Positions 1 through 31,650 of a DNA stretch of 32,000 nt are shown here, piece by piece. A program made the position numbers and the translations under genes. Numbering within the stretch: the stretch's first letter is position 1; each line of letters begins with the position of its first letter. The notes beneath the pieces were generated by a model that worked only from the letters and a program-made list of their open reading frames with translations, ran no database searches and had not been told where the DNA came from. The DNA is taken from the NCBI RefSeq assembly GCF_001644705.1, contig NZ_CP015137.1, positions 150,001 through 182,000 of the forward strand, read 5' to 3'. Origin of the DNA: Dickeya solani IPO 2222. GTDB lineage: Bacteria > Pseudomonadota > Gammaproteobacteria > Enterobacterales > Enterobacteriaceae.

Positions 1-2969
1 AGACAGCGCGCCTGCGGCAACCGTTGCAGGGACGGCAGCCAGGAGAGAGCATAGATCCCCTGAGAGTGCGCCAGATTGCGGGTTTCATGGCCGTAGGTGC
101 CCGCCATGCCGCAACAGCCGACGCTGACGTTTTCCAGCCGGGCGCCGAAATGGGCGAAAATAGCCGACCACTGTTGCCCGCTGACAGGCAGCGCCGTGGT
201 TTCGGTGCAGTGACCGAACAGATACCACGGCTCGTCGCGCAGTGCCGCAGCGCGATCGTCGCGGCCGGTCAATAGCGCCGTCAGCCACTCATGCACCAGC
301 TGCACCTGAAAATCGCCGCGCCGATCGCCCAACACTTCCCGGTATTCATCCCGGTAGCACAGCACCAGCGCCGGATCCACCCCCACCATCGGCAGCCCAA
401 GACGAGCCACCCGGTTGAGGAATTCCGAGGTTTTGCCGGCGGTTTTGGCGAAGCGCTGCAGGAAGCCTTTGATATGCTGCGGCTTGCCGTTCGGCGAAAA
501 CGGCAGCAGCACCGGCCGCAATCCCAGTTTTTCCACCAGCCGGACAAAATCCGCCACCACCTGCGCGTCGTAATAGCTGGTAAACGGGTCCTGCACGATC
601 AGCACATGATCGGCGCGTGCCTGCGGCGACATCTGTTCCAGCTGCTCCAGCGTGGTGGTCATCACCCGGTGGCCGACAAATTGCTGGCGCAGCGACGGCG
701 TCGACAGCAACGGCAAATCCACCATGCCGATGAACTTGCGGCTGACCGCATTGACCCACGGCTGGCGCAGGAAAAAGTTGAAGGTTTTCGGGCTATGCGC
801 CATCAGCGGGGCGTAACTTTCCACGCCGGCCACCAGATAGTCCCGCGCCGGCCGCAGATAGCGGGTGTGGTACAACTGCAGGAAACGGGCGCGAAAACCG
901 GGAACGTCAATCTTGATCGGGCACTGGGTGGAACAGGCTTTGCAGGCCAGACAGCCGGACATCGCCTCCTTAACCTCGTGCGAGAAATCATATACGCCCT
1001 GACGCGCGGCCAGCGTATTACGGGTTTTGGCGATCAGCCCGCGGAAACTGACGCGCTGATGCGGCAACGCGTTTTCCAACGCCAGCGGATCCACGCCCTG
1101 TTCCGATAGCAGACGCAACCACTCGCGCACCAGCGTGGCGCGGCCTTTGGGCGAATGGATACGATTGCCGGTGATTTTCATCGACGGGCACATCGGGCTG
1201 CGAGTGTCGAAGTTGAAGCACAGACCGTTGCCGTTGCACTCCATCGCGCCGCGGTACGCGGTGCGCACCGTCAGCGGAATCTGCCGATCGTAGGTGCCGC
1301 GTTTCACCGCATCCACCTTCATCATCGGCGCATCTACCCCCAGCGGCGCACAGATCTTGCCGGGGTTAAGGCGGTTGTCCGGGTCGAACGCCGCCTTGAC
1401 CCGGCGCAGCTCCTCATACAGTTCCGGCCCGAAGAATGCCGGGCTGTATTCGGCGCGGAAACCTTTGCCGTGCTCGCCCCACAGCAAACCGCCATATTTG
1501 GCGGTCAGCGCCACGATCTGATCGGACAGTTGCTTCATCAGCACTTCCTGCTGCGGGTCGCACATATCCAGCGCCGGACGCACATGCAACACACCGGCGT
1601 CCACATGGCCGAACATGCCGTAACTCAGATTGTGGCTGTCCAACAGCGCACGGAACTCGGTGATATAATCCGCCAGATGCTGAGGCGGTACGCAGGTATC
1701 TTCGGCAAACGGAATCGGTTTTGCCTGCCCTTTGCTGTTGCCCAGCAGGCCGACCGCTTTCTTGCGCATGCCGTAAATACGTTCGATGCCTGCCAGCTCA
1801 CGGCAAACCTGATAGCCGATCACTCCCGCCTCGCGGGCCGCCAGCAGCCCATCCAGGCGTTCGCACAGCGACGCCACCTGGCCGTCGATAAGCGGTTCGT
1901 CGTCGCCGGCGAACTCGACAATGTTCAGCCCCAGCATCTCCTCGCCGGGCACATCGGTAATCAGCTCGCTGACCGAGTGCCACACGATGTCTTCGCGCGC
2001 CAGATTCAGCACCTTCGAGTCCACCGTTTCCACCGACAACGCCCGCGCGTCCACCATAAACGGCGCGCTGCGCAACGCGGAATCGAACGAGTCATATTTG
2101 ACGTTGACCAGCCGCCGCACCTTGGGCAACGGCGTGATATCCAGCTTCGCTTCGGTGATGAACGCCAGCGTCCCTTCGGCACCGGTCAGAATGCGGGTCA
2201 GGTCAAACGTTTGCATGTCATCGCTGAAGACGTGGCGCAGGTCGTAACCGGTCAGGAAACGGTTCAGTTTGGGGAACTTTTCCACGATCAGGTCACGGCG
2301 TTCACGGCAGCGATGCAGTACGGTGTGATAAATACGGCCTATCGGCGAATTGTCCTGCGCCAGCTGTTCCGCCAGCGCCACCGGCATCGCCTGAGTATCC
2401 AGTAGTTCGCCGCCCGGCAGCACCGCACGCAGCCCCAGCACATGGTCTGAGGTTTTGCCATACACCAACGAACCCTGCCCCGAGGCGTCGGTATTGATCA
2501 TGCCGCCCAGCGTGGCGCGGTTGCTGGTGGACAGCTCCGGTGCGAAAAAGTAACCGAACGGTTTCAGGTACTGGTTCAGTTGATCTTTGATGACCCCGGC
2601 TTCCACCCGCACCCAGCCCTGCTCCGGGTTGATTTCCAGAATACGGTTCATGTAGCGGGACATATCCACCACAATCCCGTGATTGAGCGCCTGTCCGTTG
2701 GTACCGGTGCCGCCGCCGCGCGGCGTGAAGACCAGCTCGCGAAAGCGCGCCTCATCCGCCAGGCGGGCCAGCAGCGCCACGTCGGCGGTAGAGCGGGGGA
2801 AAACCACGGCGTCCGGCAGCAGCTGATAGATACTGTTATCCGTCGCCATCGTCAGGCGGTCGGCGTACTGGGTGGCGATATCGCCGGTAAAACCATTTTG
2901 CTTCAAGGCTTCCAAAAAGCTCAGCACCGGTTGAACGATTCCCGGCGCTCGTGTGATCTGTGGGATCAT
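1..2969 (-). CDS. ydiJ: FAD-linked oxidase / Fe-S cluster domain protein YdiJ; the 3' end runs off the window
   Basis: This gene is absent from the ORF track because it has no stop codon inside the window. Hand translation of the minus strand from ATG 2969..2967 stays open to position 1. No other minus-strand ORF is listed in this frame. The product begins MIPQITRAPGIVQPVLSFLEALKQNGFTGDIATQYADRLTMATDNSIYQLLPDAVVFPRS. Later stretches read ...ECNGNGLCFNFDTRSPMCPSMKITGNRIHSPKGRATLVREWLRLL..., ...CLACKACSTQCPIKIDVPGF... and ...VGCCGMAGTYGHE.... These match my recollection of E. coli YdiJ (about 1018 aa). The long + strand ORFs here are R/H/Q-rich shadows. Confidence 0.88.
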   Translation of the reverse strand, partial: MIPQITRAPGIVQPVLSFLEALKQNGFTGDIATQYADRLTMATDNSIYQLLPDAVVFPRSTADVALLARLADEARFRELVFTPRGGGTGTNGQALNHGIVVDMSRYMNRILEINPEQGWVRVEAGVIKDQLNQYLKPFGYFFAPELSTSNRATLGGMINTDASGQGSLVYGKTSDHVLGLRAVLPGGELLDTQAMPVALAEQLAQDNSPIGRIYHTVLHRCRERRDLIVEKFPKLNRFLTGYDLRHVFSDDMQTFDLTRILTGAEGTLAFITEAKLDITPLPKVRRLVNVKYDSFDSALRSAPFMVDARALSVETVDSKVLNLAREDIVWHSVSELITDVPGEEMLGLNIVEFAGDDEPLIDGQVASLCERLDGLLAAREAGVIGYQVCRELAGIERIYGMRKKAVGLLGNSKGQAKPIPFAEDTCVPPQHLADYITEFRALLDSHNLSYGMFGHVDAGVLHVRPALDMCDPQQEVLMKQLSDQIVALTAKYGGLLWGEHGKGFRAEYSPAFFGPELYEELRRVKAAFDPDNRLNPGKICAPLGVDAPMMKVDAVKRGTYDRQIPLTVRTAYRGAMECNGNGLCFNFDTRSPMCPSMKITGNRIHSPKGRATLVREWLRLLSEQGVDPLALENALPHQRVSFRGLIAKTRNTLAARQGVYDFSHEVKEAMSGCLACKACSTQCPIKIDVPGFRARFLQLYHTRYLRPARDYLVAGVESYAPLMAHSPKTFNFFLRQPWVNAVSRKFIGMVDLPLLSTPSLRQQFVGHRVMTTTLEQLEQMSPQARADHVLIVQDPFTSYYDAQVVADFVRLVEKLGLRPVLLPFSPNGKPQHIKGFLQRFAKTAGKTSEFLNRVARLGLPMVGVDPALVLCYRDEYREVLGDRRGDFQVQLVHEWLTALLTGRDDRAAALRDEPWYLFGHCTETTALPVSGQQWSAIFAHFGARLENVSVGCCGMAGTYGHETRNLAHSQGIYALSWLPSLQRLPQARC

Positions 2970-3310
2970 TATGTGTTGACCCTGTCCGTGCGAGAGGTGT
3001 TTGCCAATAAACTAAGTGCCGGCAGGCGGCGCGTCGGCCATCCGCAGCCCCTTCGTTTTATCACATTTCCCCCGGCGATGCGTTAATGGAGCAAGAAAAA
3101 CTTAGGGTTGCGGTAGCAAGCGGCTCCCGCGGCATAGCGCTGACGATTCGCCCTCCCGGTCAGGAATCACTGTGCAAACCGGTGGAAATCACGCATGATA
3201 AATTCTGGCTCAAATCCTTCGTATTATCAGCCATCAGGGACGACAGCCCGCCCCGTTTTCATCATTTTGCATTAGGCCTGTCGCCTGAATTAATGAGGTA
3301 ACCTCTCTTG

Positions 3311-10356: not shown

Positions 10357-10920
10357 TCAGACGCCGGTCTGCAAGCGCTGGCGCACCTGTTCCGCCACCT
10401 GCTGCCAGCCTTTGCCGAGCGCGCCGATCAGCGCGTCATAACCGTCCTCGGCCTGCGGTACCTCAATATTGAACGGCTGGGTGACGACGCGTTTACTGCC
10501 CTGCAGCACCCACTCGCCGCGAATAACCGCTTTGCCGTCAAACCGCCCCTGAAACGCCGTCACATTGACCTGCAGGCTGGACGCGCCATCGCTGGCGGCG
10601 CCGGTCGCGGCGACATGCCAGCCCGGCAGGCCGTTGCGCAGCGACGCCACCAGCGCCTGCTGCAACTGCTGGTCCAACGGGCTGGCCCACAGATTATTGG
10701 CCGCAATGGTGTAACGTACCGCCGAAGTCTGGAACACGATGCCGTTCCCTGCCAGCGAATCCACCAGGGTGACCGGGGCCACCCACAGCTGACGCCCGTC
10801 GGTCGACGCTACCGAGAGACTGGTGCTCTGCGTAGCGGCAGGCAGTTGATAATAGACTTTTTGCGGGCTGCTACAGGCGCCCAGCAGCAACACCAGCCAC
10901 AACGGCCATCGTTTCATCAT
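10357..10920 (-). CDS. pqiC: Intermembrane transport lipoprotein PqiC (YmbA)
   Basis: The 187-aa product has a signal peptide with the lipobox LLLGAC|S. NLWASPLDQQL and GYDALI..LG..W align with recalled E. coli PqiC. Its start overlaps the pqiB stop in ATGA (10917-10920), which suggests translational coupling. Confidence 0.9.
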   Translation of the reverse strand: MMKRWPLWLVLLLGACSSPQKVYYQLPAATQSTSLSVASTDGRQLWVAPVTLVDSLAGNGIVFQTSAVRYTIAANNLWASPLDQQLQQALVASLRNGLPGWHVAATGAASDGASSLQVNVTAFQGRFDGKAVIRGEWVLQGSKRVVTQPFNIEVPQAEDGYDALIGALGKGWQQVAEQVRQRLQTGV

Positions 10921-12542
10921 GGTTTCGCCTTCTTCGGTTGTGGATCACGGGCACCCGGTGCCTCGAAGATCAGAGCATTGCTCTTGTCGTTCAGGGTACG
11001 CAGCAACGGCTGCAATTCGCGTAGCGTCTGATCAAGACGCTGCATATCGACCACCATGCGGTTATACGCCGGCGAACCGGGTTGCACGCCTTGCAGGCTG
11101 CGGTTCAATTCGCGCAGCGTACGCTGCAAGTCCTCCGGCAACTTCTGCATCGCATCGCTGTTGGTCAGCGTGTTGAGCGACGACAGTGTTTTCTGCAGTT
11201 CGCGCAGGGTGGACTGGCCTTCCGCCAGTGTCTTCGTCGCCTGTTCCACCATCGGGTTGAGCGGCAGGTTATTGATTTTATCCAGCACCGACATCAGTTT
11301 CTGTTGGATCTGCGTCAGGCCGCCGTTGACGGTTGGCAACACCGGGTAGCCATCCATCGACGCCAGCGACGTCACGCGGCCTTTTTGCTGCGGATAAAAA
11401 TCCAGATCCACGTACAGCGCGCCAGTCAGCAGATTGGCGGTTTTCATCGACGCCCGCATGCCGGATATCGCGCCCTTGCTCAGTTCCTGTTCCAGATTGA
11501 TCTGGTCGCGCAGCCCTTGTTTCAGCCGGCCCGGTTCGATGCGCACCAGCACCGGGATGCGGTAGTCGCTGTCGAAACTCTGCGGCAGATTGTGCGGGAA
11601 GAACGGCACTTCCGCGACGGTTCCCAGCCGGATACCGCGGAATTCGACCGGCGCGCCTGCCTGCAAGCCGCGTACCGACTCATCGAAAAACAGCAGGTAT
11701 TCTTTGTACTCGGTATAGAGCGAATCTTGAATACTGTTCTGATTGTCAAACAACTGGAATTCGTCGCGCTCATGGGACAGGCTGCCCACTTCCCAACCGG
11801 CAGGCACATCAAAGCTGACGCCGCCGCTTAGCAACGTACTGAGCGACCCCATTTCCACTCGCATCCCCTGCGCAGACAGATTCAGCGCCACGCCGCTGTC
11901 TTTCCAGAAACGAACATTCGCCGTAACCAACTGATCATAGGGCGCGGCGACAAACAGCTGATACTGCATCTTTCTGGCTTTAGGATCAAAGTGGCTGGTT
12001 TCCACCGAGCCGACCCGGTAGCCGCGGAACAGCACCGGATCGCCGGCGGTTAATTGCCCGGACTGCTCGCTGTTGAGAATGATGCGAATCCCTTTAGCGT
12101 CGGGCGACGCCAGCGGCGGTGAATCCAGCAGTTTGAAAGCGCGGCTGTCTTCCTTGTTGGACCCCGGCTGGAGCTCGATGAAGGAGCCGGACAACAGCGT
12201 TCCCAACCCGGAGACGCCTTCGCGGCCTATCTGCGGTTTCACCACCCAGAACGCCGAATCTTTACTCAGTAGTTTATCCATGCCGTCGTTAAGACGCGCC
12301 TTGATTTCCACCTGATGCAGGTCTTCGCTCAGCATCACACTTTCCACAATCCCCACGTTCACGCTGCGGCTCTTGATCGCCGTTTTCCCCGCCTCGATCC
12401 CCTCGGCGTTGCTGGTGGTCAGCGTGATTTCCGGCCCCTGATGACTCACGTGATAAAACAGAATCCAGGCGCCAATCAGCACGGTCACAATCGGTACAAT
12501 CCATACCGGCGACCAGCGTTTGATGCTTTCGATCTGCGCCAT
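10917..12542 (-). CDS. pqiB: Intermembrane transport protein PqiB (multi-MCE domain)
   Basis: The product is collinear with recalled E. coli PqiB (546 aa). Matching strings include WSPVWIVPIVTVLIGAWILFYH, FWVVKPQIGREGVSGLGTLLSG, PVEFRGIRLGTV, LTGALYVDLDFYP and MQRLDQTLRELQP. The track start (12617) lies inside pqiA. I chose ATG 12542, giving MAQIESIKRWSP. An alternative is TTG at 12560, preceded by AGGAGAGG and overlapping the pqiA end. That start would give a length closer to the E. coli protein. Confidence 0.92.
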   Translation of the reverse strand: MAQIESIKRWSPVWIVPIVTVLIGAWILFYHVSHQGPEITLTTSNAEGIEAGKTAIKSRSVNVGIVESVMLSEDLHQVEIKARLNDGMDKLLSKDSAFWVVKPQIGREGVSGLGTLLSGSFIELQPGSNKEDSRAFKLLDSPPLASPDAKGIRIILNSEQSGQLTAGDPVLFRGYRVGSVETSHFDPKARKMQYQLFVAAPYDQLVTANVRFWKDSGVALNLSAQGMRVEMGSLSTLLSGGVSFDVPAGWEVGSLSHERDEFQLFDNQNSIQDSLYTEYKEYLLFFDESVRGLQAGAPVEFRGIRLGTVAEVPFFPHNLPQSFDSDYRIPVLVRIEPGRLKQGLRDQINLEQELSKGAISGMRASMKTANLLTGALYVDLDFYPQQKGRVTSLASMDGYPVLPTVNGGLTQIQQKLMSVLDKINNLPLNPMVEQATKTLAEGQSTLRELQKTLSSLNTLTNSDAMQKLPEDLQRTLRELNRSLQGVQPGSPAYNRMVVDMQRLDQTLRELQPLLRTLNDKSNALIFEAPGARDPQPKKAKP

Positions 12543-24487: not shown

Positions 24488-25279
24488 ATGCGCAAGAAAC
24501 TGACGCCGATTGTCGAACGCCTGACGCCCTGGTTGCTGCCGCTGCTGCTGGTGATAGTCTGGCAACTCGCGTCCAGCGTCGGCTGGCTCTCCACCCGGAT
24601 CCTGCCTTCGCCGCAAGCGATTGCCGTGACCTTCTGGCGACTAACCCGCAGCGGTGAACTGTGGCAGCACCTCAGTATCAGTACCTGGCGCGCGCTGACC
24701 GGGTTCGCCATCGGCGGCGCGCTGGGGCTGGCGCTCGGTTTTATCACCGGGCTGTCCCGCACCGGCGAGCGCCTGCTGGACACCTCGGTGCAGATGCTGC
24801 GCAACGTGCCGCATCTGGCCTTGATCCCGCTGGTGATCCTGTGGTTCGGCATTGAAGAGAGCGCCAAGATCTTTCTGGTAGCGCTCGGCACCCTGTTCCC
24901 TGTCTACCTCAACACCTACCACGGCATCCGCAATATCGACAGCGGTCTGCTGGAAATGTCGCGCAGTTACGGCCTGTCCGGCTTCCGGCTGTTCCGCGAG
25001 GTGCTGCTGCCCGGCGCGCTGCCCTCGATCATGGTCGGCGTGCGTTTCTCGCTCGGCTTGATGTGGCTGACGCTGATCGTGGCGGAAACCATCTCCGCCA
25101 GTTCCGGCATTGGCTATCTGGCGATGAACGCCCGTGAATTTCTGCAAACCGACGTGGTGATGGTGGCGATCATTCTGTATGCCCTGCTGGGCAAACTGGC
25201 TGACGTCATTGCCCTGACGCTGGAGCGCATCTGGCTGCGTTGGCACCCCAGTTGGCAATTAACGGAGGAACACGCATGA
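24488..25279 (+). CDS. ssuC: Aliphatic sulfonate ABC transporter permease SsuC
   Basis: The 263-aa hydrophobic protein carries a BPD-transporter EAA-like region ([23 protein letters not shown]). Its length equals that of recalled E. coli SsuC. Its stop overlaps the ssuB start in ATGA. Confidence 0.93.
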
Positions 25280-26097
25280 CTTTTAATAACGCGGCGTCCA
25301 ATACCGCTGCGCCGGCCCGCCTTAACGCCGGCACCCCGTTGCTGATCAACGGCGTCACCAAGCGCTATGGTCAGCGCACTATTTTGAGTGACGTGCACCT
25401 GCACATTCCGGCCGGTCAGTTCGTCGCCGTGGTCGGCCGCAGCGGCTGCGGCAAGAGCACCCTGCTGCGCCTGTTGGCCGGTCTGGAGCAGGCAAGCCAC
25501 GGGGAGTTGCTGGCCGGCCGCGCCCCGCTGCATCAGGCGCGCGACGATATCCGGCTGATGTTTCAGGAAGCGCGTTTACTACCGTGGAAGCGAGTGCTCG
25601 ACAACGTCGGACTGGGGTTGCGCGGCGAATGGCGCACGGCCGCGCATCAGGCACTGGACGCCGTCGGGCTATCATCGCGGGCCGCCGACTGGCCCGCCGC
25701 GCTGTCCGGCGGACAAAAACAGCGGGTGGCGCTGGCGCGCGCGCTGATCCATCGCCCCGGTCTGTTATTGCTGGATGAGCCGCTGGGCGCGTTGGATGCG
25801 CTGACCCGTATCGAGATGCAGGGGCTGATTGAATCATTGTGGCTGCAGCAGGGATTTACCGTTCTGCTGGTGACCCACGATGTCAGCGAAGCCGTCGCGC
25901 TTGCCGACCGGGTGATCCTGATCGAAGACGGTCGGGTCGGGCTGGATGTGGCGATTGACCTGCCGCGACCGCGCCGCCGCGGCTCCGCCCGGCTGGCGGA
26001 GCTGGAAGCGCAGGTGCTGGAGCGGATTCTGACGCCAGCCGCCAGTAACACGATAGCAGACATCAGAAGCAGTGAACCTCAGCGTGTTGGCTGGTGA
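25276..26097 (+). CDS. ssuB: Aliphatic sulfonate ABC transporter ATP-binding protein SsuB
   Basis: The track start 25240 is a TTG inside ssuC. I prefer ATG 25276, with GGAGGA at 25264-25269 and an ATGA overlap with the ssuC stop. The product has Walker [10 protein letters not shown], the signature LSGGQKQR and Walker B LLLLDEP. It completes the canonical ssuEADCB order. Confidence 0.93.
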
Positions 26098-26119
26098 AGG
26101 CGAACGCTGATAAAGATAG

Positions 26120-26154
26120 GGTGCGGTATGTCCCATCTCCGCACCTTATTTTTA
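26120..26154 (+). terminator. Rho-independent terminator of the ssu operon, overlapped by the stop codon of the convergent deaminase gene
   Basis: GGTGCGG (20120+6000: 26120-26126) pairs with CCGCACC (26139-26145) around a 12-nt loop. TTATTTTTA follows (26146-26154). The TAA stop of the minus-strand 817-aa ORF is 26154..26152, inside this U-tract. Confidence 0.7.
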
Positions 26155-28605
26155 GAGTGGATAGTCAAAACGGTAAATACGCCCGTTCTCATTTAACGCC
26201 GCCACCTGTGCCAGTGCATCCTGCTCGCTGTAGTGGAACTCGTTCATCAGCACAGTAAACAGATGATAAAACTCCCCTTTCATATCGGTGACAAAAATCC
26301 CCTGATCGTCGGAACCTAATGCCACCGACATAGGATGATCACCTGCAACATAACGCCCAGGAAGATGCATCCAGCGAAACAAATGATGCTGGGTAATATC
26401 ATCGTAATAACTGATCCTGACATTGCTGGTGGGCAGCGTTTCAATCACCACTTGTTTTTCACGCACCCGCTTTTGCACGTATTGCTGTGCAGCCAGCAGG
26501 GCACTGTCAGGCAGAAATGCGGTGTCGAACTCGGCAGAGGCTTCATACCGTTTAATCACCTCTGCATCAAACCAGCGCTGCTTTAATAATGACAGTGCCT
26601 CTTTACCATGATGTTTTGCAAATTCACCCGCCCGATCAAACTCTTCGCCTACCCAATCTACTGGCCGGTCGGTACGATCTTGCAGATAATTTCGCACCTG
26701 TATGGGGTCAAGCCCGCGCCCGTCAAAAAAGTGCTGTAACACGACGGCTGAAGGATGCTGTTCAAAAATCCGGTACGCCAGCATCGCAATTTCGCTATCC
26801 AGTCGTACCAGCGGTAAATCGCTTCCCTCACGCTGTTCCAGCAACAATTTGCGCACAAACAGCAGGTTTTCCAGCCATTCACCTTGCTTAATAAATAATG
26901 TTTCCGGCATTTTCATGCGCCAAAACGCTGGCATGATGCCAATCGCCGTGGCATGACCGATACGATCGCCATTCGATAACTCCAGCAGAGTCAGGCAGTC
27001 GTAGACAGCGCGAATGCCACTGAGCAAGTGTTCAAAATCCTCCCCGGCGTGATAGGTAAAATGGGCGATTCCCTGACGGCGGGCCTGACGAAAAAGCACC
27101 GCAAACACTTCAGGAGCAGCCTCGCGTTCATTAGCTGCGGCATCAAACCCGGTAAGCAGCGAGCGCAACGCCGGAAACTCGTCCAATACTTGAAATAATG
27201 CGTGAGCGCGCTTCAACACATCTTCACGTAGTACGCTGAAATGGGAGGAGCCATCACGATAATCCCAACGACGTTTGATGAAATGCACCACCAGCCGTAA
27301 CGTCGGGCGTGTCGCGGTAAGACAGGCTTGTGCCAACGCATTTAATTCTTGTGGTTTATCAAACGATAAAGCGATGGGGTTCTGGTAGTCCCAAAACCCG
27401 TCGAGGATACGTGTGATCAGTTGCTTATTCTTGCCGGGCGTGTCTTTCGGCGCAAAGCGCCCTTCAATCGTCGCCATCATCGATGCGCCAGCAACCTGCT
27501 CACCATGTAGCTGATAAAAACGTGCAGCATAATGTTCTTCTATCGGCTCACGTGGACCTAACTCGGTAAATTTCTGGAACTGATCAAAACCTATCTGATC
27601 GGTACGCTGCACCAGCAAACGCTGAAACAGGTTCATGCACAACAAATACAGCCAATAGCAGGCATCTTCTGTCGCCGATGGGTTAGCGCGCAATGCATGT
27701 AACACCCGGATATGAAAATGCAACTCGCACAGGCCCTGATACTGTTGCTCCTGAGCATACGCCGCCTGCTCCCAGGCAAAAAAGCCCGCGTCGGGAGCGA
27801 CAATATCGTTACAGCACAGCAAGTCAGCAAAGTGCTGTTTTGCCGGTTTACCCCCACACTCCGGGTGATACCGACCCTCGGCCCAGCGTAGTAGCCACTC
27901 GCGGCAATAACGGGCGATATGCAGCATACGGCTCACTTTAACCGGGGTATCCAGCGAGTGGGCTACGGCATAAAAGCGCCGTAATCGGGTAGGGTCATCC
28001 TTACGGCTTTTCTCCATTTCATTAATCAGCGCATCGGGATGCAGCAGGCTGTGATGCCACATCAGCTCCACGAAGGTCGTACCGTTAAGGTGCATATGCG
28101 CTTCATGCAGTCCTTCGCGCCGTAGATAATCTTCCACCCGTGGATGCCAGGGCGACACAATCGGCCGATACCCCAACGTCTGCTTTAGCCGCGCCAGTAA
28201 TTCAAACAGCGGTGGGCACTCCTTGCCGCACCACATCTGTTCCAGTTGATAAGCGATAACCGGGAAACCGGATTGATTCGCCACCCAGTTTTGCCACTCG
28301 CCAAAGTGCGACAGGCGTACCGCCAGCCGACGCGAATCGTCTTCCAGATGGTAGCGAGCCGCCTGCCCGAGTAGCGCCCGGCACCAACCTTTGGCTTCAT
28401 GTTGACGCGACAGCAAGTGTTCCCAATGGCGCTCAAACATCGGATCGGTATGCGTGAACTGGCGCTGATACCAACTGTTATAAGTCACCGCTTCGATGTC
28501 TTTTTCCGGCAAAGTCGAGCGCTCACCAGACAGCAACAACGGCAGTTGCATCAGCAAAAGCTCATACAGTCGAGGCTCCGAAAGAAGATATTGGTTGATA
28601 AACAT
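26152..28605 (-). CDS. rdrB: Divergent adenosine-deaminase-family protein with large insertions; RADAR RdrB-like effector candidate
   Basis: The ORF encodes 817 aa. An AAGG SD lies 7 nt upstream, 33 nt after the upstream ORF. The full adenosine/AMP-deaminase motif set is present in canonical order:
- H170-M-H172 within EAHMHLNGT (nt 28098..28090)
- H519-A-G-E522 within FTYHAGEDF (nt 27051..27040)
- G550-H551-A within DRIGHATAIG
- E722-TLPTSN-728
- S765-D766-D767 within ALGSDDQGIF
The gene symbol is assigned from architecture (size, ATPase partner, island context). It is not based on a computed alignment. Confidence 0.75.
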   Translation of the reverse strand: MFINQYLLSEPRLYELLLMQLPLLLSGERSTLPEKDIEAVTYNSWYQRQFTHTDPMFERHWEHLLSRQHEAKGWCRALLGQAARYHLEDDSRRLAVRLSHFGEWQNWVANQSGFPVIAYQLEQMWCGKECPPLFELLARLKQTLGYRPIVSPWHPRVEDYLRREGLHEAHMHLNGTTFVELMWHHSLLHPDALINEMEKSRKDDPTRLRRFYAVAHSLDTPVKVSRMLHIARYCREWLLRWAEGRYHPECGGKPAKQHFADLLCCNDIVAPDAGFFAWEQAAYAQEQQYQGLCELHFHIRVLHALRANPSATEDACYWLYLLCMNLFQRLLVQRTDQIGFDQFQKFTELGPREPIEEHYAARFYQLHGEQVAGASMMATIEGRFAPKDTPGKNKQLITRILDGFWDYQNPIALSFDKPQELNALAQACLTATRPTLRLVVHFIKRRWDYRDGSSHFSVLREDVLKRAHALFQVLDEFPALRSLLTGFDAAANEREAAPEVFAVLFRQARRQGIAHFTYHAGEDFEHLLSGIRAVYDCLTLLELSNGDRIGHATAIGIMPAFWRMKMPETLFIKQGEWLENLLFVRKLLLEQREGSDLPLVRLDSEIAMLAYRIFEQHPSAVVLQHFFDGRGLDPIQVRNYLQDRTDRPVDWVGEEFDRAGEFAKHHGKEALSLLKQRWFDAEVIKRYEASAEFDTAFLPDSALLAAQQYVQKRVREKQVVIETLPTSNVRISYYDDITQHHLFRWMHLPGRYVAGDHPMSVALGSDDQGIFVTDMKGEFYHLFTVLMNEFHYSEQDALAQVAALNENGRIYRFDYPL

Positions 28606-28638
28606 GTTGGGGCCTTATTTTTATCTGCTGATAGATTT

Positions 28639-31428
28639 TTATTTTTTTGTAAAACATCCAGAAATAGGCAAACGAGAAATATATAAATACTTATCTCTCG
28701 AAGGTGTGTTACTTTCATGAATTGGTTCAGGTGCCAGATCACCTTGATCTGGTATATTTTTAATTTCATTAATAGAATACAAGCCATCCAATAACCCAGT
28801 AGATAAAATCGCCTGATAGAGTTTTTCTCGATCTGATTTTCCTTCCCCATTAATCTTTAGCAAAGAAACATCACTCCCACCCTCTTTACTTTCCTTACAA
28901 AAAGATGATGGATTTAGATCAGGTAATAAAAATGGCAACATCAATGGACATCGAATAATTGCACTAGTTACAGGAAGTAAATCAAGAAATTTCTTGCCTT
29001 CACTCTCAGCACTCTTAATTAAATCAGCAACGCGATTTATATTATTAACTAATTCCCTTGGGGAAGTGGCCGTGTTTTTAGCAGAATAAAACCTCTCCAC
29101 AAGTTTATCAGGTATATTTTGACTATAGTAAACCTCTTCTATCATAAAGGCATTTATTACCCCGAAGACAAAAAAGGAGAACAAATGACCGAGAAGAATA
29201 TCTTCTTTGTCAGGCACACCCGGATATGAAAATTTACTACTAGCAGAATCTTTGGAAGCAGACAGCAACGTGTATTGTACTCTTTCCCATACTTTTCCCA
29301 TCAGTAACGAGGAGCAGGTTAATTTGCTCATTCCTTTCCACGAATTGATTTTATTGTTTAAAATTTTTATAAATCCATCCTCTGAATATTGCGCACTCCC
29401 TTCACTACCATCATCACCTTCTTCATCCTCTGTCTCCTTTTGTCTATTCAAAAATGCCGGGTAACCAAACGTCAGCACAGAAATAAAACGCTCAATTGAA
29501 TAATCAACATTTTCGTCCAGCAACCGTGCCATCACTGCCAGCAAGCTAAAAACAGAAATATAATCTCTTTTTTCCGCTCCTTCCTGAACACTGTTTGATG
29601 ATACCAAAATAGTTACTGCCGCGACCACATCAACATAATTTCTATCAACTTCTCCTAAATTTCTGGAAAGCCAGTCCAGCGAACTTATCACGTCCTCTTT
29701 TTTCCATTCCGTTATTTTTTCAAAACCAGACTCATCAAACTTTTCGCTTCTCCTTCTGTTAACCTTTATCACCCCACCATGGATTTGCTTTAATTTTTTA
29801 TCATTTCCATGAAAAATAATCGGGTTAAAATGTGCTGCCACACCAGTAACGCTTTCACCACGGGTTAACCCAAGATACTCAATGTATGCCCTTGGCAGGT
29901 TACTTTCTCCATTCTCTTTTTCAGCCAGATAATGCATATAGAGATTGGCTGGCATCGCACTGGTTAACATGAAGGTCAGGGCATTTGATAATGTATTTCT
30001 CTCCAATAACCGGCTAACTAGCATTGCCAGATACATTTTGACAGCGTTATAGGCATTATTGTCATTATCGGGGCGTAAATAAAACCCGGTTTCCAGATCG
30101 CCGTGCTGATGACATAAGCTAAATATCTCACAGGCAATTTTATTAACATCTTTGCCACCTTCCTCCAATAAATAATCACCAGCACCTTTCTCAATTATTT
30201 CATGAATAAAAAGACGTTTTAATGCAGAGATTACCGTATCTGATAATTCAGGAGATTTGAGCAATTTACCTTCTTGATTAACGAGTATCATTTTTAACAA
30301 CTGAACGACAGTTCGTATTGGCTGAGAGAGAATAAAATTATGATAATATTTTTGCTGTGTATCTTTAATCTTTAACGTAAGAGAAATAATATCAAACAAG
30401 AGATCTGGTGATTTTTCACCAGCACTCTGTTCAGAGTCATCAATACCTTGGTACACCTTACCATTTTTTGAAAAAAGCACTTTTCCATTTTTATTTTCAA
30501 ATAACTGAATTAACAATTGTAAGTCGATGCGCTGATAGGCCGGTAAAATTTTTGCCATATATTGTTGGGTTAAATTGCTTACCAAATCCTTGGTCTCTTT
30601 TTCATCATTACCCTGTTTACCACCAGACTGTAATTCAAGTTGTTTTTGGTTTTTTACAATATGGTTATATAACCTTAAGTCACCTGAGATCAGCACAACC
30701 ACTCTGGGGTGGTTCAAATAGCGGCGAATAGTTTCCAGTACCTCATAAGCTTTTTTGGTATGGGTATCAACATCATCAATGGCAATAATAAACAATTTTT
30801 TATTTAAAATTTTGGCAACTGCATTAATAAAGTAATGCAACCGCTCTTCCAAATACTGCCCACTTTTAGCACTTTTAAGCGCCTGATTTAAAAACCAGCC
30901 ATCATCATGTTTGTCATGGTTTGTTTTATGGTGACTGGCTAGTTTCAGCCCTTCCGCCATTTCTTCAAGACATTTATTCAGTCGCTGACTTTTCTCTTCA
31001 TCCGCACAATAGTTAAGCTTGCTGTCATATAGCTGCTTAAATTTCACGACAATATCAATCAGAATATTTTGATGAGTTTCAATTAAGGTCGGGTCTATAA
31101 AAGCCAGTGGGCAAATACCATCACTATTATTTTTTTCCTCAGAGTAGAAATCCAACATCGCTCTTAGGAATGTAGTTTTACCGGTGCCGCGCTGACCATT
31201 AATAAAAATGGTATTGTTACTGCGAAATATATTATTTAGCAATTTATCACTATTCGGTTGACATGATTTCGCTTCACTATAGTTTTCCAGGTTTTTAACA
31301 AAACCTCTCAGTAACTTCTCCAATTGCGCTTTCGCTGCATATTGCAGCATGGTGCTTTCATCGTATCGATTTAAATCAAATACATTATCGAGATCAATAA
31401 TAATCTCACTAATATTATTATCACTCAT
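28639..31428 (-). CDS. rdrA: Large P-loop NTPase (KAP/AAA+-like); RADAR RdrA-like ATPase candidate
   Basis: The ORF encodes 929 aa. A GGAG SD lies 5 nt upstream of ATG 31428. Walker A FINGQRGTGKTTFL places G78-T85 at nt 31197..31174. Walker B KLFIIAIDDVDTH spans aa 211-223. A roughly 700-aa C-terminal region has no motif I recognise, apart from an acidic loop ETEDEEGDDGSEGSAQYSEDG (aa 665-685). The gene is very AT-rich with K/N/I/L-rich codon usage, unlike its neighbours. The symbol is assigned from architecture only. Confidence 0.75.
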   Translation of the reverse strand: MSDNNISEIIIDLDNVFDLNRYDESTMLQYAAKAQLEKLLRGFVKNLENYSEAKSCQPNSDKLLNNIFRSNNTIFINGQRGTGKTTFLRAMLDFYSEEKNNSDGICPLAFIDPTLIETHQNILIDIVVKFKQLYDSKLNYCADEEKSQRLNKCLEEMAEGLKLASHHKTNHDKHDDGWFLNQALKSAKSGQYLEERLHYFINAVAKILNKKLFIIAIDDVDTHTKKAYEVLETIRRYLNHPRVVVLISGDLRLYNHIVKNQKQLELQSGGKQGNDEKETKDLVSNLTQQYMAKILPAYQRIDLQLLIQLFENKNGKVLFSKNGKVYQGIDDSEQSAGEKSPDLLFDIISLTLKIKDTQQKYYHNFILSQPIRTVVQLLKMILVNQEGKLLKSPELSDTVISALKRLFIHEIIEKGAGDYLLEEGGKDVNKIACEIFSLCHQHGDLETGFYLRPDNDNNAYNAVKMYLAMLVSRLLERNTLSNALTFMLTSAMPANLYMHYLAEKENGESNLPRAYIEYLGLTRGESVTGVAAHFNPIIFHGNDKKLKQIHGGVIKVNRRRSEKFDESGFEKITEWKKEDVISSLDWLSRNLGEVDRNYVDVVAAVTILVSSNSVQEGAEKRDYISVFSLLAVMARLLDENVDYSIERFISVLTFGYPAFLNRQKETEDEEGDDGSEGSAQYSEDGFIKILNNKINSWKGMSKLTCSSLLMGKVWERVQYTLLSASKDSASSKFSYPGVPDKEDILLGHLFSFFVFGVINAFMIEEVYYSQNIPDKLVERFYSAKNTATSPRELVNNINRVADLIKSAESEGKKFLDLLPVTSAIIRCPLMLPFLLPDLNPSSFCKESKEGGSDVSLLKINGEGKSDREKLYQAILSTGLLDGLYSINEIKNIPDQGDLAPEPIHESNTPSRDKYLYISRLPISGCFTKK

Positions 31429-31491
31429 AACTGCTCCATGACATTAAATTATATTAAAATAATAAAAAATAATCCGGTTTGACGGCCGAAG

Positions 31492-31519
31492 TTATTACAC
31501 TCAGACAAATGAATGTCAA
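31492..31519 (-). promoter_or_regulatory. Candidate sigma70 promoter of the rdrA-rdrB-like operon
   Basis: On the minus strand a consensus -35 TTGACA (31519..31514) is followed by a 16-nt spacer and a -10 TAATAA (31497..31492). This predicts a 5' UTR of roughly 55 nt in AT-rich DNA. No transcription start site data are available. Confidence 0.45.
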
Positions 31520-31578
31520 TAAAAGCAAGAAAGACGGTAAGCGATATTACTAACCGGATGACAGCGATGTGATGGAAT

Positions 31579-31604
31579 TAAAAAAGCCGGGGTATTTCCC
31601 GGCT
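31579..31604 (-). terminator. Rho-independent terminator of pepN
   Basis: On the minus strand AGCCGGG-AAATAC-CCCGGCT (31604..31585) is followed by TTTTTT, seen as the A-run 31580-31585 on the + strand. It lies 46 nt downstream of the pepN stop. Confidence 0.7.
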
Positions 31605-31650
31605 TCACAAATAACCTGCACAGATAACGCATCCGTGCTTTTCTTTGCGC

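What the first reader, a model, noticed from the sequence alone, without database searches (positions are those of the whole stretch)
26152..31519. AT-rich two-gene island with a large P-loop ATPase and a divergent adenosine deaminase: RADAR-type (rdrA-rdrB) anti-phage defence candidate
This is a minus-strand operon. The first gene is a 929-aa ORF (31428 to 28639) with Walker A GQRGTGKT (aa 78-85) and Walker B IIAIDDVD (aa 214-221). A 33-nt spacer with its own SD follows. The second gene is an 817-aa ORF (28605 to 26152) carrying the complete adenosine-deaminase metal-binding and catalytic motif set (HxH 170-172, HAGE 519-522, GHA 550-552, ETLPTSN 722-728, SDD 765-767).

Neither gene belongs to the conserved ssuB/pepN neighbourhood. 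The pair is compositionally foreign and sits among housekeeping genes. An ATPase of about 900 aa followed by an adenosine deaminase of about 800 aa is the defining architecture of RADAR (Gao et al. 2020). For RADAR, the deaminase has been proposed either to edit RNA A-to-I or to convert (d)ATP to (d)ITP during infection. No rdrC/rdrD-like accessory gene is present, so this would be the minimal form. The assignment rests on motifs and architecture because I could not run a homology search. If the proteins turn out not to match RdrA/RdrB, the pair would be an undescribed ATPase-deaminase system.
Basis: partly seen in the sequence, partly recalled or inferred. Interest (0 to 1): 0.92.

Follow-up and report, generated by a model that had tools for sequence, protein, structure and literature searches.

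The report
RADAR anti-phage system in Dickeya solani
The two genes are a genuine, intact RADAR anti-phage defence system (RdrA ATPase plus RdrB ATP deaminase) inserted between pepN and ssuB of Dickeya solani, already listed in a published RADAR catalogue, and the only fresh point is that the presumed phage-sensing half of RdrA is swapped between strains while RdrB stays constant.

Summary
Both ORFs and every motif sit at the stated coordinates.

- **RdrA (929 aa):** aligns over nearly its full length to E. coli RdrA (PDB 8HR7/8FNT, E 2e-49). Its AlphaFold model superposes on that structure (TM 0.75/0.83).
- **RdrB (817 aa):** aligns over nearly its full length to E. coli RdrB (8FNW, E 1.6e-132).
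- **Catalytic residues:** all published ones are conserved.
- **Insertion:** the pair is a 5.6-kb insertion into a pepN-ssuB junction that is empty in most related genera. It has no accessory gene, integrase or repeats.

It is not new. Table S1 of Duncan-Lowey et al. 2023 already lists this D. solani system, with the same 929/817 aa sizes and the same 5277-bp span.

What I add concerns the seven Dickeya loci that carry the pair at this site:
- RdrB is 92-97% identical.
- The RdrA N-domain is 78-97% identical.
- The RdrA C-terminal lobe falls into deep allele classes (39-43% identity; dS up to 70 times that of pepN within D. solani; dN/dS about 0.2).
- These classes are shuffled against the species tree.
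- rdrA stays 32-37% GC in every genus examined, whereas rdrB ranges from 36% to 52%.

This fits the untested idea that the C-terminal lobe is the phage sensor.

The parts
28639..31428 (-). rdrA, 929-aa AAA+ ATPase of RADAR (36% GC)
   Evidence: ORF. phmmer to E. coli RdrA 8hr7_A/8fnt_B: E 2e-49, aa 70-837 vs 68-858. AF2 model (pLDDT 82) vs E. coli RdrA chains: E 2e-36, TM 0.75/0.83. PADLOC and NCBIfam RdrA hits.
30559..31428 (-). rdrA N-domain (aa 1-290): AAA+ core plus the 'crown' helical insertion that docks on RdrB in E. coli. Moderately conserved among Dickeya alleles.
   Evidence: Walker A G83/K84/T85 (31174-31197), Walker B D218/D219 (30766-30789) and sensor 1 D250 map onto E. coli G81/K82/T83, D221/D222 and D253. 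Identity among Dickeya alleles is 78-97%. This is the only part matched by the PADLOC and NCBIfam profiles.
28642..30558 (-). rdrA C-terminal part (aa 291-929): end of the AAA+ module (sensor 2 R372) plus the alpha-helical lobe. This is the hypervariable, recombining part and the presumed phage sensor.
   Evidence: Two deep allele classes share 39-43% identity, with mosaic blocks inside classes. dS is 0.88 against 0.013 for pepN between two D. solani strains, with dN/dS about 0.2. The fold matches the E. coli RdrA lower layer. The sensor role is a hypothesis from PMC9994260, not shown.
28606..28638 (-). 33-nt rdrA-rdrB spacer with a weak SD (AAGG)
   Evidence: Sequence read. DNA identity between alleles returns abruptly to 95-100% at this point.
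26152..28605 (-). rdrB, 817-aa adenosine-deaminase-fold (d)ATP deaminase of RADAR (52% GC)
   Evidence: phmmer to E. coli RdrB 8fnw_A: E 1.6e-132, aa 29-813 vs 22-795. Zn tetrad H170/H172 (28090-28098), H519, H551 (26953-26955) and catalytic E522 (27040-27051) correspond to E. coli H152/H154/H498/H530/E501. 92-97% identical across seven Dickeya loci.
31491..31519 (-). Candidate sigma-70 promoter of the operon: -35 TTGACA (31519-31514), 17-nt spacer ending in TGT, -10 AATAAC (31496-31491)
   Evidence: Conserved in all five RADAR-bearing Dickeya loci aligned, although the surrounding intergenic DNA diverges. Coordinates. Not picked up by the generic scan. Inferred, not shown.
31580..31606 (-). 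pepN terminator hairpin (GAAGCCGGGAAATACCCCGGCTTTTTT) belonging to the inserted DNA. It replaces the different bidirectional terminator of empty sites.
26120..26145 (.). GC-rich hairpin between the convergent rdrB and ssuB stops. Likely a shared terminator.
   Evidence: Sequence, conserved in the filled loci, coordinates.
26037..31650 (.). Full extent of the inserted DNA relative to empty pepN-ssuB sites. It includes a replaced 3' end of ssuB (last 17-19 codons).
   Evidence: Alignments with D. undicola and D. oryzae ZYY5 empty sites. SsuB C-termini differ. No direct repeats, integrase or tRNA.

Best explanation
This is an intact, minimal (two-gene) RADAR anti-phage system of Dickeya solani, of the same subtype as the structurally solved E. 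coli P0304799.3 system.

By homology, RdrA should form a heptameric two-layer AAA+ ring and RdrB a hollow dodecamer. RdrA rings should dock through their crown over the RdrB active sites. On phage infection the complex should deaminate ATP and dATP to ITP and dITP, poisoning the nucleotide pool and aborting phage replication.

- **Shown here:** gene integrity, homology, fold, conservation of every catalytic residue, insertion into a housekeeping junction, and purifying selection.
- **Inferred from the E. coli and C. rodentium work:** oligomeric state, (d)ATP substrate and the anti-phage phenotype.

In Dickeya the locus behaves as a fixed chassis with an exchangeable module.
- The chassis is rdrB plus the rdrA AAA+/crown part.
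- The module is the rdrA C-terminal lobe. It exists as old, deeply diverged allele classes that are moved between strains and species by homologous, partly intragenic, recombination.
- The most likely meaning is that the lobe determines which phage cue is sensed.
For: - **RdrA homology.** phmmer against PDB gives E 2e-49 over aa 70-837.
- **RdrB homology.** phmmer against PDB gives E 1.6e-132 over aa 29-813.
- **RdrA fold.** The AF2 model has pLDDT 82 and pTM 0.82. Foldseek's top 19 hits are all E. coli RdrA chains, with E 2e-36 and TM 0.75/0.83.
- **Catalytic residues.** All are conserved: Walker A and B, sensor 1 and 2, the His tetrad and the catalytic Glu (residue list from PMC9994260).
- **Profile hits.** PADLOC, NCBIfam and Pfam all hit the expected families.
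- **Catalogue entry.** The same system (929/817 aa, 5277-bp span) is in the RADAR catalogue of PMC9994260, Table S1.
- **Insertion.** The site is empty in other species.
- **Selection.** dN/dS is 0.1-0.24 in both genes, so both are under selection.
- **Chassis and module pattern.** RdrB is 92-97% identical, the RdrA N-domain 78-97% and the C-domain 39-92%, incongruent with PepN. Breakpoints are sharp, near codon 290 and at the rdrA stop. dS of rdrA-C is 0.88 against 0.013 for pepN within D. solani. One allele pair is 97% identical in N and 43% in C.
Against: - No experiment exists for the Dickeya system.
- Identity to the characterised E. coli proteins is only 25% for RdrA and 38% for RdrB.
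- Residues shown by mutagenesis to matter for E. coli assembly are not conserved. Crown K150/E151/R162 become S147/Q148/E159, and the 3-fold interface E595-E597 becomes E-Q-H. The interfaces must therefore differ in detail.
- NCBIfam equivalog cut-offs are missed by a wide margin: 203 against 600 bits and 115 against 800 bits.
- For the sensor reading, no window of rdrA reaches dN/dS above 1. Positive selection is not demonstrated, and the phage trigger of RADAR is unknown in any system.
Confidence: 0.85

Rival explanations
1. It is RADAR, but it defends by A-to-I editing of RNA (the original Gao et al. 2020 model) rather than by deaminating free (d)ATP.
For: PDB holds E. coli RdrA rings described as 'RNA-loading state' (8hra, 8hrb), and these are among the best structural matches of the Dickeya RdrA model. 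Weak A-to-G signals of about 4% were seen for C. rodentium RADAR (PMC9994260).
Against: RdrB has the ADA/AMP-deaminase His-tetrad site, not an ADAR/cytidine-deaminase site, and this site is conserved here. In PMC9994260, E. coli RADAR protected without detectable RNA editing, and purified RdrB deaminated ATP and dATP but not hairpin RNA.
Confidence: 0.08
2. The extreme diversity of the RdrA C-terminal lobe is not phage-driven specificity. It reflects weak constraint on a structural scaffold plus ordinary 'replacing' recombination, which is frequent in Dickeya.
For: No dN/dS window exceeds 1. Replacing HGT is well documented genome-wide in D. solani (PMC4607151). RdrA is poorly conserved outside the ATPase site across all RADAR systems (PMC9994260).
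Against: dN/dS in the lobe is still about 0.2, so it is constrained. Divergence is mostly synonymous-saturated old variation (dS 0.9-3.3) that stops exactly at the rdrA stop codon, while the adjacent rdrB is shallow. That points to long-term maintenance of distinct classes rather than drift. The fold is retained at 19-26% identity to E. coli.
Confidence: 0.3
3. The pair is a decaying or silenced remnant with no current function, for example rdrA silenced by H-NS because it is AT-rich.
For: rdrA is 36% GC in a genome region that is about 59% GC. One catalogued D. solani strain (IFB 0099) has a 411-aa gene A.
Against: Both ORFs are intact in this window and in 55 index blocks of assemblies. All catalytic residues are kept. 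dN/dS is 0.1-0.24. A promoter-like element is conserved.
Confidence: 0.05
4. It is a housekeeping purine-nucleotide enzyme pair rather than a defence system.
For: It is chromosomal, with no mobility genes, and sits at the same site in seven Dickeya loci.
Against: It is absent from the same site in D. undicola, D. oryzae ZYY5 and all other genera sampled. It sits at different sites in Pectobacterium, Aeromonas and Lonsdalea, in two of these next to an integrase gene. Its composition is foreign. It is a direct homologue of experimentally validated defence proteins.
Confidence: 0.02

Closest known systems
E. coli P0304799.3 RADAR (RdrA 947 aa, RdrB 799 aa; PDB 8FNT, 8FNV, 8FNW, 8HR7-8HRC)
   Same: The two-gene rdrA-rdrB order is the same. 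Both proteins are near-full-length homologues. The RdrA fold matches, including the C-terminal lobe. All ATPase and deaminase catalytic residues are identical. Neither system has an accessory gene.
   Different: Identity is only 25% for RdrA and 38% for RdrB. The crown contact residues and the EEE 3-fold interface motif are not conserved. The genomic site and host differ.
Citrobacter rodentium DBS100 RADAR and the NCBIfam equivalogs NF041743 (RdrA) and NF041744 (RdrB)
   Same: Same system type and domain content, with significant profile hits (1e-59 and 3e-33).
   Different: Scores are far below the equivalog cut-offs (203 against 600 bits, 115 against 800 bits). The RdrA match is confined to aa 20-314. 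NCBI therefore names the Dickeya proteins only 'P-loop NTPase fold protein'. This is a different RADAR subtype.
Streptococcus suis RADAR RdrA (PDB 8FNU)
   Same: Same family; Foldseek E 3e-11.
   Different: TM is only 0.38, so it is much more distant than the E. coli type.
RADAR with the RdrD/SLATT accessory gene (e.g. Pluralibacter gergoviae 'RADAR2', PMC11482910)
   Same: The RdrA and RdrB core.
   Different: No third gene here. pepN and ssuB flank the pair directly.
STAND/NLR-like defence NTPases (Avs) with a conserved NTPase and variable C-terminal sensor
   Same: The logic is the same: a conserved P-loop module with a variable C-terminal sensor. There is a weak structural hit to Avs3 (E 2e-4). 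The analogy with ROQ1 was drawn in PMC9994260.
   Different: RdrA is a ring-forming AAA+ ATPase, not a STAND protein. Its effector is a separate deaminase. A sensor role for the RdrA lobe is unproven.

Membership tests
RADAR (RdrA/RdrB) | Tandem rdrA then rdrB genes in one operon | tested here: met
   Same strand, 33-nt spacer, rdrA upstream. The same arrangement is found in all related loci.
RADAR (RdrA/RdrB) | RdrA: AAA+ ATPase with Walker A, Walker B, sensor 1 and sensor 2 | tested here: met
   G83/K84/T85, D218/D219, D250 and R372 align with E. coli G81/K82/T83, D221/D222, D253 and R377. They are invariant or nearly so in 86 homologues.
RADAR (RdrA/RdrB) | RdrA: family-specific C-terminal alpha-helical lobe (lower layer of the heptamer) and the crown insertion | tested here: met
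   The AF2 model superposes over its full length on E. coli RdrA chains, TM 0.75/0.83. Crown helices 122-208 are present in the model. The crown contact residues themselves are not conserved.
RADAR (RdrA/RdrB) | RdrB: adenosine-deaminase fold with a Zn-binding His tetrad and a catalytic Glu | tested here: met
   H170, H172, H519, H551 and E522 correspond to E. coli H152, H154, H498, H530 and E501. Pfam A_deaminase 2e-10.
RADAR (RdrA/RdrB) | RdrB: three large insertions that build the dodecameric shell | tested here: inconclusive
   The alignment to E. coli RdrB is continuous over residues 22-795, so the insertions are present. The functionally tested E595-E597 motif reads E-Q-H here. Oligomeric state was not modelled.
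RADAR (RdrA/RdrB) | Curated HMM thresholds (NCBIfam equivalogs NF041743 and NF041744) | tested here: not met
   203 bits against a 600-bit cut-off and 115 bits against an 800-bit cut-off. Scores this far below the cut-offs, together with clear homology to the E. coli proteins, suggest the models do not cover this subtype. Failing them excludes the equivalog subfamily, not the RADAR family.
RADAR (RdrA/RdrB) | Listed in the published RADAR census | tested here: met
   PMC9994260 Table S1 lists D. solani PPO 9134 with gene A 929 aa, gene B 817 aa and coordinates 171213-176489, a span of 5277 bp. Window 26152-31428 is also 5277 bp.
RADAR (RdrA/RdrB) | Heptamer-dodecamer supramolecular assembly, (d)ATP-to-(d)ITP conversion, protection from phage | not testable with these tools
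   Needs biochemistry and plaque assays. Known only for the E. coli, C. rodentium and S. suis systems.
Type III CRISPR-associated CARF-adenosine deaminase | CARF sensor domain fused to the deaminase; CRISPR neighbourhood | tested here: not met
   The PADLOC CARF_ADA hit (9e-11) covers only the deaminase core, aa 418-553. The flanking genes are pepN and the ssu operon, with no cas genes called.

The most novel reading that the evidence does not exclude
The RdrA C-terminal lobe is RADAR's exchangeable phage-specificity cassette.
- In Dickeya it is maintained as ancient allele classes at one fixed chromosomal site.
- It is shuffled by intragenic recombination onto a constant AAA+/crown-RdrB chassis. 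Class II lobes are closer to Pectobacterium lobes than to other Dickeya lobes.
- The persistent AT-richness of rdrA, against an rdrB that is 36-52% GC depending on genus, would be the footprint of this continual replacement.

If so, the natural Dickeya allele series is a ready-made tool for finding the still-unknown RADAR trigger.
Probability: 0.4. Interest if true: 0.6.

Novelty: already known. Interest (0 to 1): 0.28.

Why it matters
As a system it adds nothing new. RADAR is characterised structurally and biochemically, and this very D. solani locus is in the published census.

Three things have practical value:
1. Standard annotation (NCBI PGAP) does not name these proteins RdrA and RdrB, because they miss the equivalog thresholds. 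This E. coli-like RADAR subtype may therefore be under-annotated.
2. D. solani is a potato pathogen for which phage biocontrol is being considered. Strains carry different RdrA alleles, which could affect phage susceptibility.
3. The constant-chassis, variable-lobe pattern gives comparative support for the unproven hypothesis that the RdrA C-terminal domain senses phage. It also offers a natural allele series for testing it.

Tried and rejected
- **P0080.** I took this 947-aa protein for the E. coli RdrA. It is a different protein, so I used the printed HMMER alignments for residue mapping.
- **Generic promoter scan.** It found no more sites than shuffled sequence and missed the conserved TTGACA element.
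- **Rfam on the island.** Only a sub-threshold PsrR1 hit in the rdrA leader (E 0.09, 26.5 against 42 bits), taken as chance.
- **Small ORFs between pepN and rdrA.** Only 23-38-aa ORFs, not followed up and not counted as an accessory gene.
- **Positive selection.** Pairwise sliding dN/dS never exceeds 1, so I do not claim it.
- **Mobile vector for the AT-rich rdrA.** Plasmid hits are distant (at most 30% identity, 7 records), and there are no phage hits.
- **Literature on Dickeya plus RADAR.** No paper in the library. The D. solani population papers do not mention the locus.
- **pepN-ssuB as a general defence hotspot.** Not supported. Of 80 pepN loci outside the RADAR-bearing Dickeya, nearly all have pepN and ssuB adjacent or no ssu operon there. 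The one 2-kb insert I inspected (Serratia rubidaea L045) holds a single 605-aa ORF that I did not characterise.
- **Three ORFs without family hits at 291-3086 (+).** These are antisense shadows of a real minus-strand gene.
Full report
**1. Observation**

The two minus-strand ORFs exist exactly as described: 31428..28639 (929 aa) and 28605..26152 (817 aa). All motifs are at the stated residues.

Composition is not uniform. rdrA is 36.1% GC (GC3 32%) and rdrB is 52.2% (GC3 56%), against 59-61% for the flanks. 'AT-rich island' therefore fits only the first gene.

The window is Dickeya solani chromosome. The identical RdrA is indexed in 55 blocks of public assemblies, for example CP051459.1. Gene order is pepN, then rdrA-rdrB, then the convergent ssuB (ssuEADCB operon).

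**2. Identity**

Profile libraries:
- PADLOC: RdrA 4e-36, RdrB 7e-22.
- NCBIfam: RdrA 1e-59, RdrB 3e-33. Both are far below the equivalog cut-offs, at 203 against 600 bits and 115 against 800 bits.
- Pfam: only KAP_NTPase/AAA_22 and A_deaminase.
- The profile hits to RdrA cover only aa 20-320.

Direct comparison with solved structures is decisive:
- RdrA aligns to E. coli RdrA (8HR7, 8FNT) over aa 70-837 with E 2e-49.
- RdrB aligns to E. coli RdrB (8FNW, 8FNV) over aa 29-813 with E 1.6e-132.
- Identities are 25% and 38%.
- An AlphaFold2 model of RdrA, built on 86 homologues (pLDDT 82, pTM 0.82), has E. coli RdrA chains as its top 19 Foldseek hits (E 2e-36, TM 0.75/0.83). The C-terminal lobe is therefore the RdrA lobe as well.

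Mapping the residues defined in Duncan-Lowey et al. 2023 (PMC9994260) gives:
- RdrA: Walker A G83/K84/T85, Walker B D218/D219, sensor 1 D250, sensor 2 R372.
- RdrB: Zn tetrad H170/H172/H519/H551 and catalytic E522.
- All of these are conserved.
- The E. coli assembly residues are not conserved. Crown K150/E151/R162 become S/Q/E, and the 3-fold motif EEE595-597 becomes EQH.

**3. Already catalogued**

Table S1 of PMC9994260 lists 'Dickeya solani PPO 9134', with gene A 929 aa, gene B 817 aa and coordinates 171213-176489. That span is 5277 bp, the same as window 26152-31428. Other D. solani strains are listed too. The system is therefore already known as RADAR, though it has never been tested experimentally. 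NCBI annotation still calls RdrA 'P-loop NTPase fold protein'.

**4. Insertion anatomy**

I used PepN as a single-copy anchor against species-representative genomes.
- pepN and ssuB are adjacent, with a gap of about 100-300 bp, in D. undicola, D. oryzae ZYY5, Lonsdalea, Rahnella, Serratia, Erwinia and others.
- Alignment of filled and empty sites shows that homology ends at the pepN stop and resumes at window position 26036, inside ssuB. The last 17-19 codons of ssuB belong to the insert.
- The insert brings its own pepN terminator (31606-31580) and a hairpin between rdrB and ssuB (26145-26120).
- It also carries a promoter-like element conserved in all five filled loci aligned: TTGACA, 17 nt, AATAAC, at 31519-31491.
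- There are no direct repeats, no integrase, no tRNA and no accessory gene.
- RADAR relatives in other genera sit at other sites, in two cases next to an integrase gene: Pectobacterium polaris (bamE-rnfH, near smpB), Aeromonas and Lonsdalea.

**5. What is new: a constant chassis and a variable lobe**

Seven Dickeya loci carry the pair at this same site. Amino-acid identity relative to the window is:

| Protein | Identity to the window |
|---|---|
| PepN | 92-100% |
| RdrB | 92-97% |
| RdrA | 53-92% |

The RdrA pattern contradicts the species tree.
- Two D. solani strains have 100% identical PepN but only 77% identical RdrA.
- D. solani and D. parazeae share 92% in RdrA.
- D. parazeae, D. ananatis and D. 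zeae share 98-99% in PepN but only 53-69% in RdrA.

Sliding DNA identity shows sharp boundaries. Between the two D. solani strains it runs as follows:
- 100% in pepN;
- 86-94% over the rdrA 5' kilobase;
- 64-82% over the rest of rdrA;
- back to 95-100% exactly at the rdrA stop.

Against D. parazeae, rdrA and most of rdrB are more similar (88-98%) than the flanks (72-92%, mostly 80-88%). This indicates transfer between species.

At protein level:
- The N-domain (aa 60-290, AAA+ plus crown) is 78-97% identical among 13 Dickeya alleles.
- The C-domain splits into two deep classes sharing 39-43% identity.
- Class II (D. fangzhongdai, D. oryzae, D. zeae) is closer to Pectobacterium lobes (43-49%) than to class I.
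- The Secpp1600 and D. fangzhongdai alleles are 97% identical in N and 43% in C.

Nei-Gojobori estimates show that this is old variation moved by recombination, not rapid in-situ change.
- Within D. solani, dS is 0.88 for rdrA-C, 0.31 for rdrA-N, 0.105 for rdrB and 0.013 for pepN.
- Between classes, dS is saturated at 1.9-3.3.
- dN/dS is 0.16-0.24 in the lobe and 0.07-0.18 in the N-domain and rdrB.
- No 60-codon window exceeds 1.
- dS blocks switch abruptly inside the lobe, so it is an intragenic mosaic.

This matches the 'replacing HGT' described for D. solani (PMC4607151). L086 is the water isolate FVG13-S21A17-D9 (PMC10743776).

**6. GC asymmetry**

GC content of the two genes in the four genera examined:

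| Genus | rdrA GC | rdrB GC |
|---|---|---|
| Dickeya | 36% | 52% |
| Pectobacterium | 32% | 44% |
| Aeromonas | 34% | 36% |
| Lonsdalea | 32% | 40% |

- rdrA is 32-37% GC in every genus examined, while rdrB varies from 36% to 52%.
- rdrB is well below the local flanks in Aeromonas and Lonsdalea but close to them in Pectobacterium and Dickeya.
- One reading is that rdrB has been resident longer in Dickeya and has drifted toward host composition, while rdrA is repeatedly replaced from an AT-rich pool.
- The other is that AT-richness of rdrA is itself selected. I could not decide between them.
- No plasmid or phage vector was found.

**7. Mechanism**

The best-supported mechanism is the published one, applied by homology.
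- RdrA heptamers dock by the crown on an RdrB dodecamer.
- On infection the complex converts ATP and dATP to ITP and dITP and aborts phage replication (PMC9994260).
- The trigger is unknown. The authors hypothesise that the RdrA C-terminal domain is the sensor.
- A preprint proposes T7 gp5.7 as a trigger of a three-gene RADAR (PMC11482910).

The Dickeya pattern is what a specificity module under long-term balancing or diversifying pressure would look like. The crown/AAA+ part that must fit RdrB is conserved, and the lobe is deeply polymorphic and recombining. This is inference, not proof.

**8. Verdict**

The system is ordinary in kind and already catalogued, so interest is low. The allele-exchange pattern is a modest, testable addition.

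Noticed in passing
window 28639-31428 vs 26152-28605; L005, L090, L091: rdrA stays 32-37% GC (GC3 23-32%) in Dickeya, Pectobacterium, Aeromonas and Lonsdalea. rdrB GC varies from 36% to 52% across the same genera. This is an unexplained difference in composition between two genes of one operon.
   Followed up: partly
L005 15232-18688 (Pectobacterium polaris): The Pectobacterium RADAR lies between bamE and rnfH. About 2 kb beyond it, past smpB, come a phage-type integrase and a 1070-aa KAP-family NTPase gene, possibly a defence island at the ssrA/smpB hotspot.
   Followed up: no
L006 (D. undicola 2B12) 10900-11050: This strain has an empty pepN-ssuB site. Even so, the RADAR census lists it with a different-sized RADAR (857/863 aa) on another contig. 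Dickeya therefore carries at least two RADAR subtypes at different loci. D. dianthicola (785/862) and D. chrysanthemi L11 (820/854) look like that other type.
   Followed up: no
L086 13194-13430 and L087 13132-13380, the rdrB-ssuB spacer (window equivalent about 26098-26120): A 16-17-nt unit (TTTATCAACGCTTTTCT-like) is present in one or two extra tandem copies in D. solani FVG13 and D. zeae relative to the window allele.
   Followed up: no
window 31467-31551 (-): The rdrA leader gives a sub-threshold Rfam hit to the cyanobacterial sRNA PsrR1 (26.5 bits against 42, E 0.09). It also contains a short hairpin plus T-run (31490-31473) downstream of the candidate promoter. Probably chance, but an attenuator-like element is not excluded.
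   Followed up: no
window 3-3011 (-) and 291-3086 (+): Three long + strand ORFs (272, 416 and 168 aa) with no family hits are antisense shadows. The real gene is a stop-free minus-strand frame of more than 1000 aa (GC3 0.77) that runs off the left end of the window, so the ORF tool does not list it.
   Followed up: yes
L045 10962-12779 (Serratia rubidaea): This is the only other sizeable insert I inspected in the pepN-ssuB gap among the 80 loci. It is a single 605-aa ORF on the minus strand, which I did not characterise.
   Followed up: partly
L091 4359-5072 and 11738-13317 (Lonsdalea quercina): The Lonsdalea RADAR is flanked by an integrase-like gene and a hipBA toxin-antitoxin pair, downstream of mnmE. 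This is a mobile-island context, unlike the Dickeya locus.
   Followed up: no
window 25240-26097 (+), ssuB: The mechanical ORF starts at TTG 25240 (285 aa), but assemblies call a 273-aa product starting at ATG 25276. The C-terminal 17-19 residues of SsuB in RADAR-bearing Dickeya are encoded by the inserted DNA and differ from those of empty-site species.
   Followed up: partly
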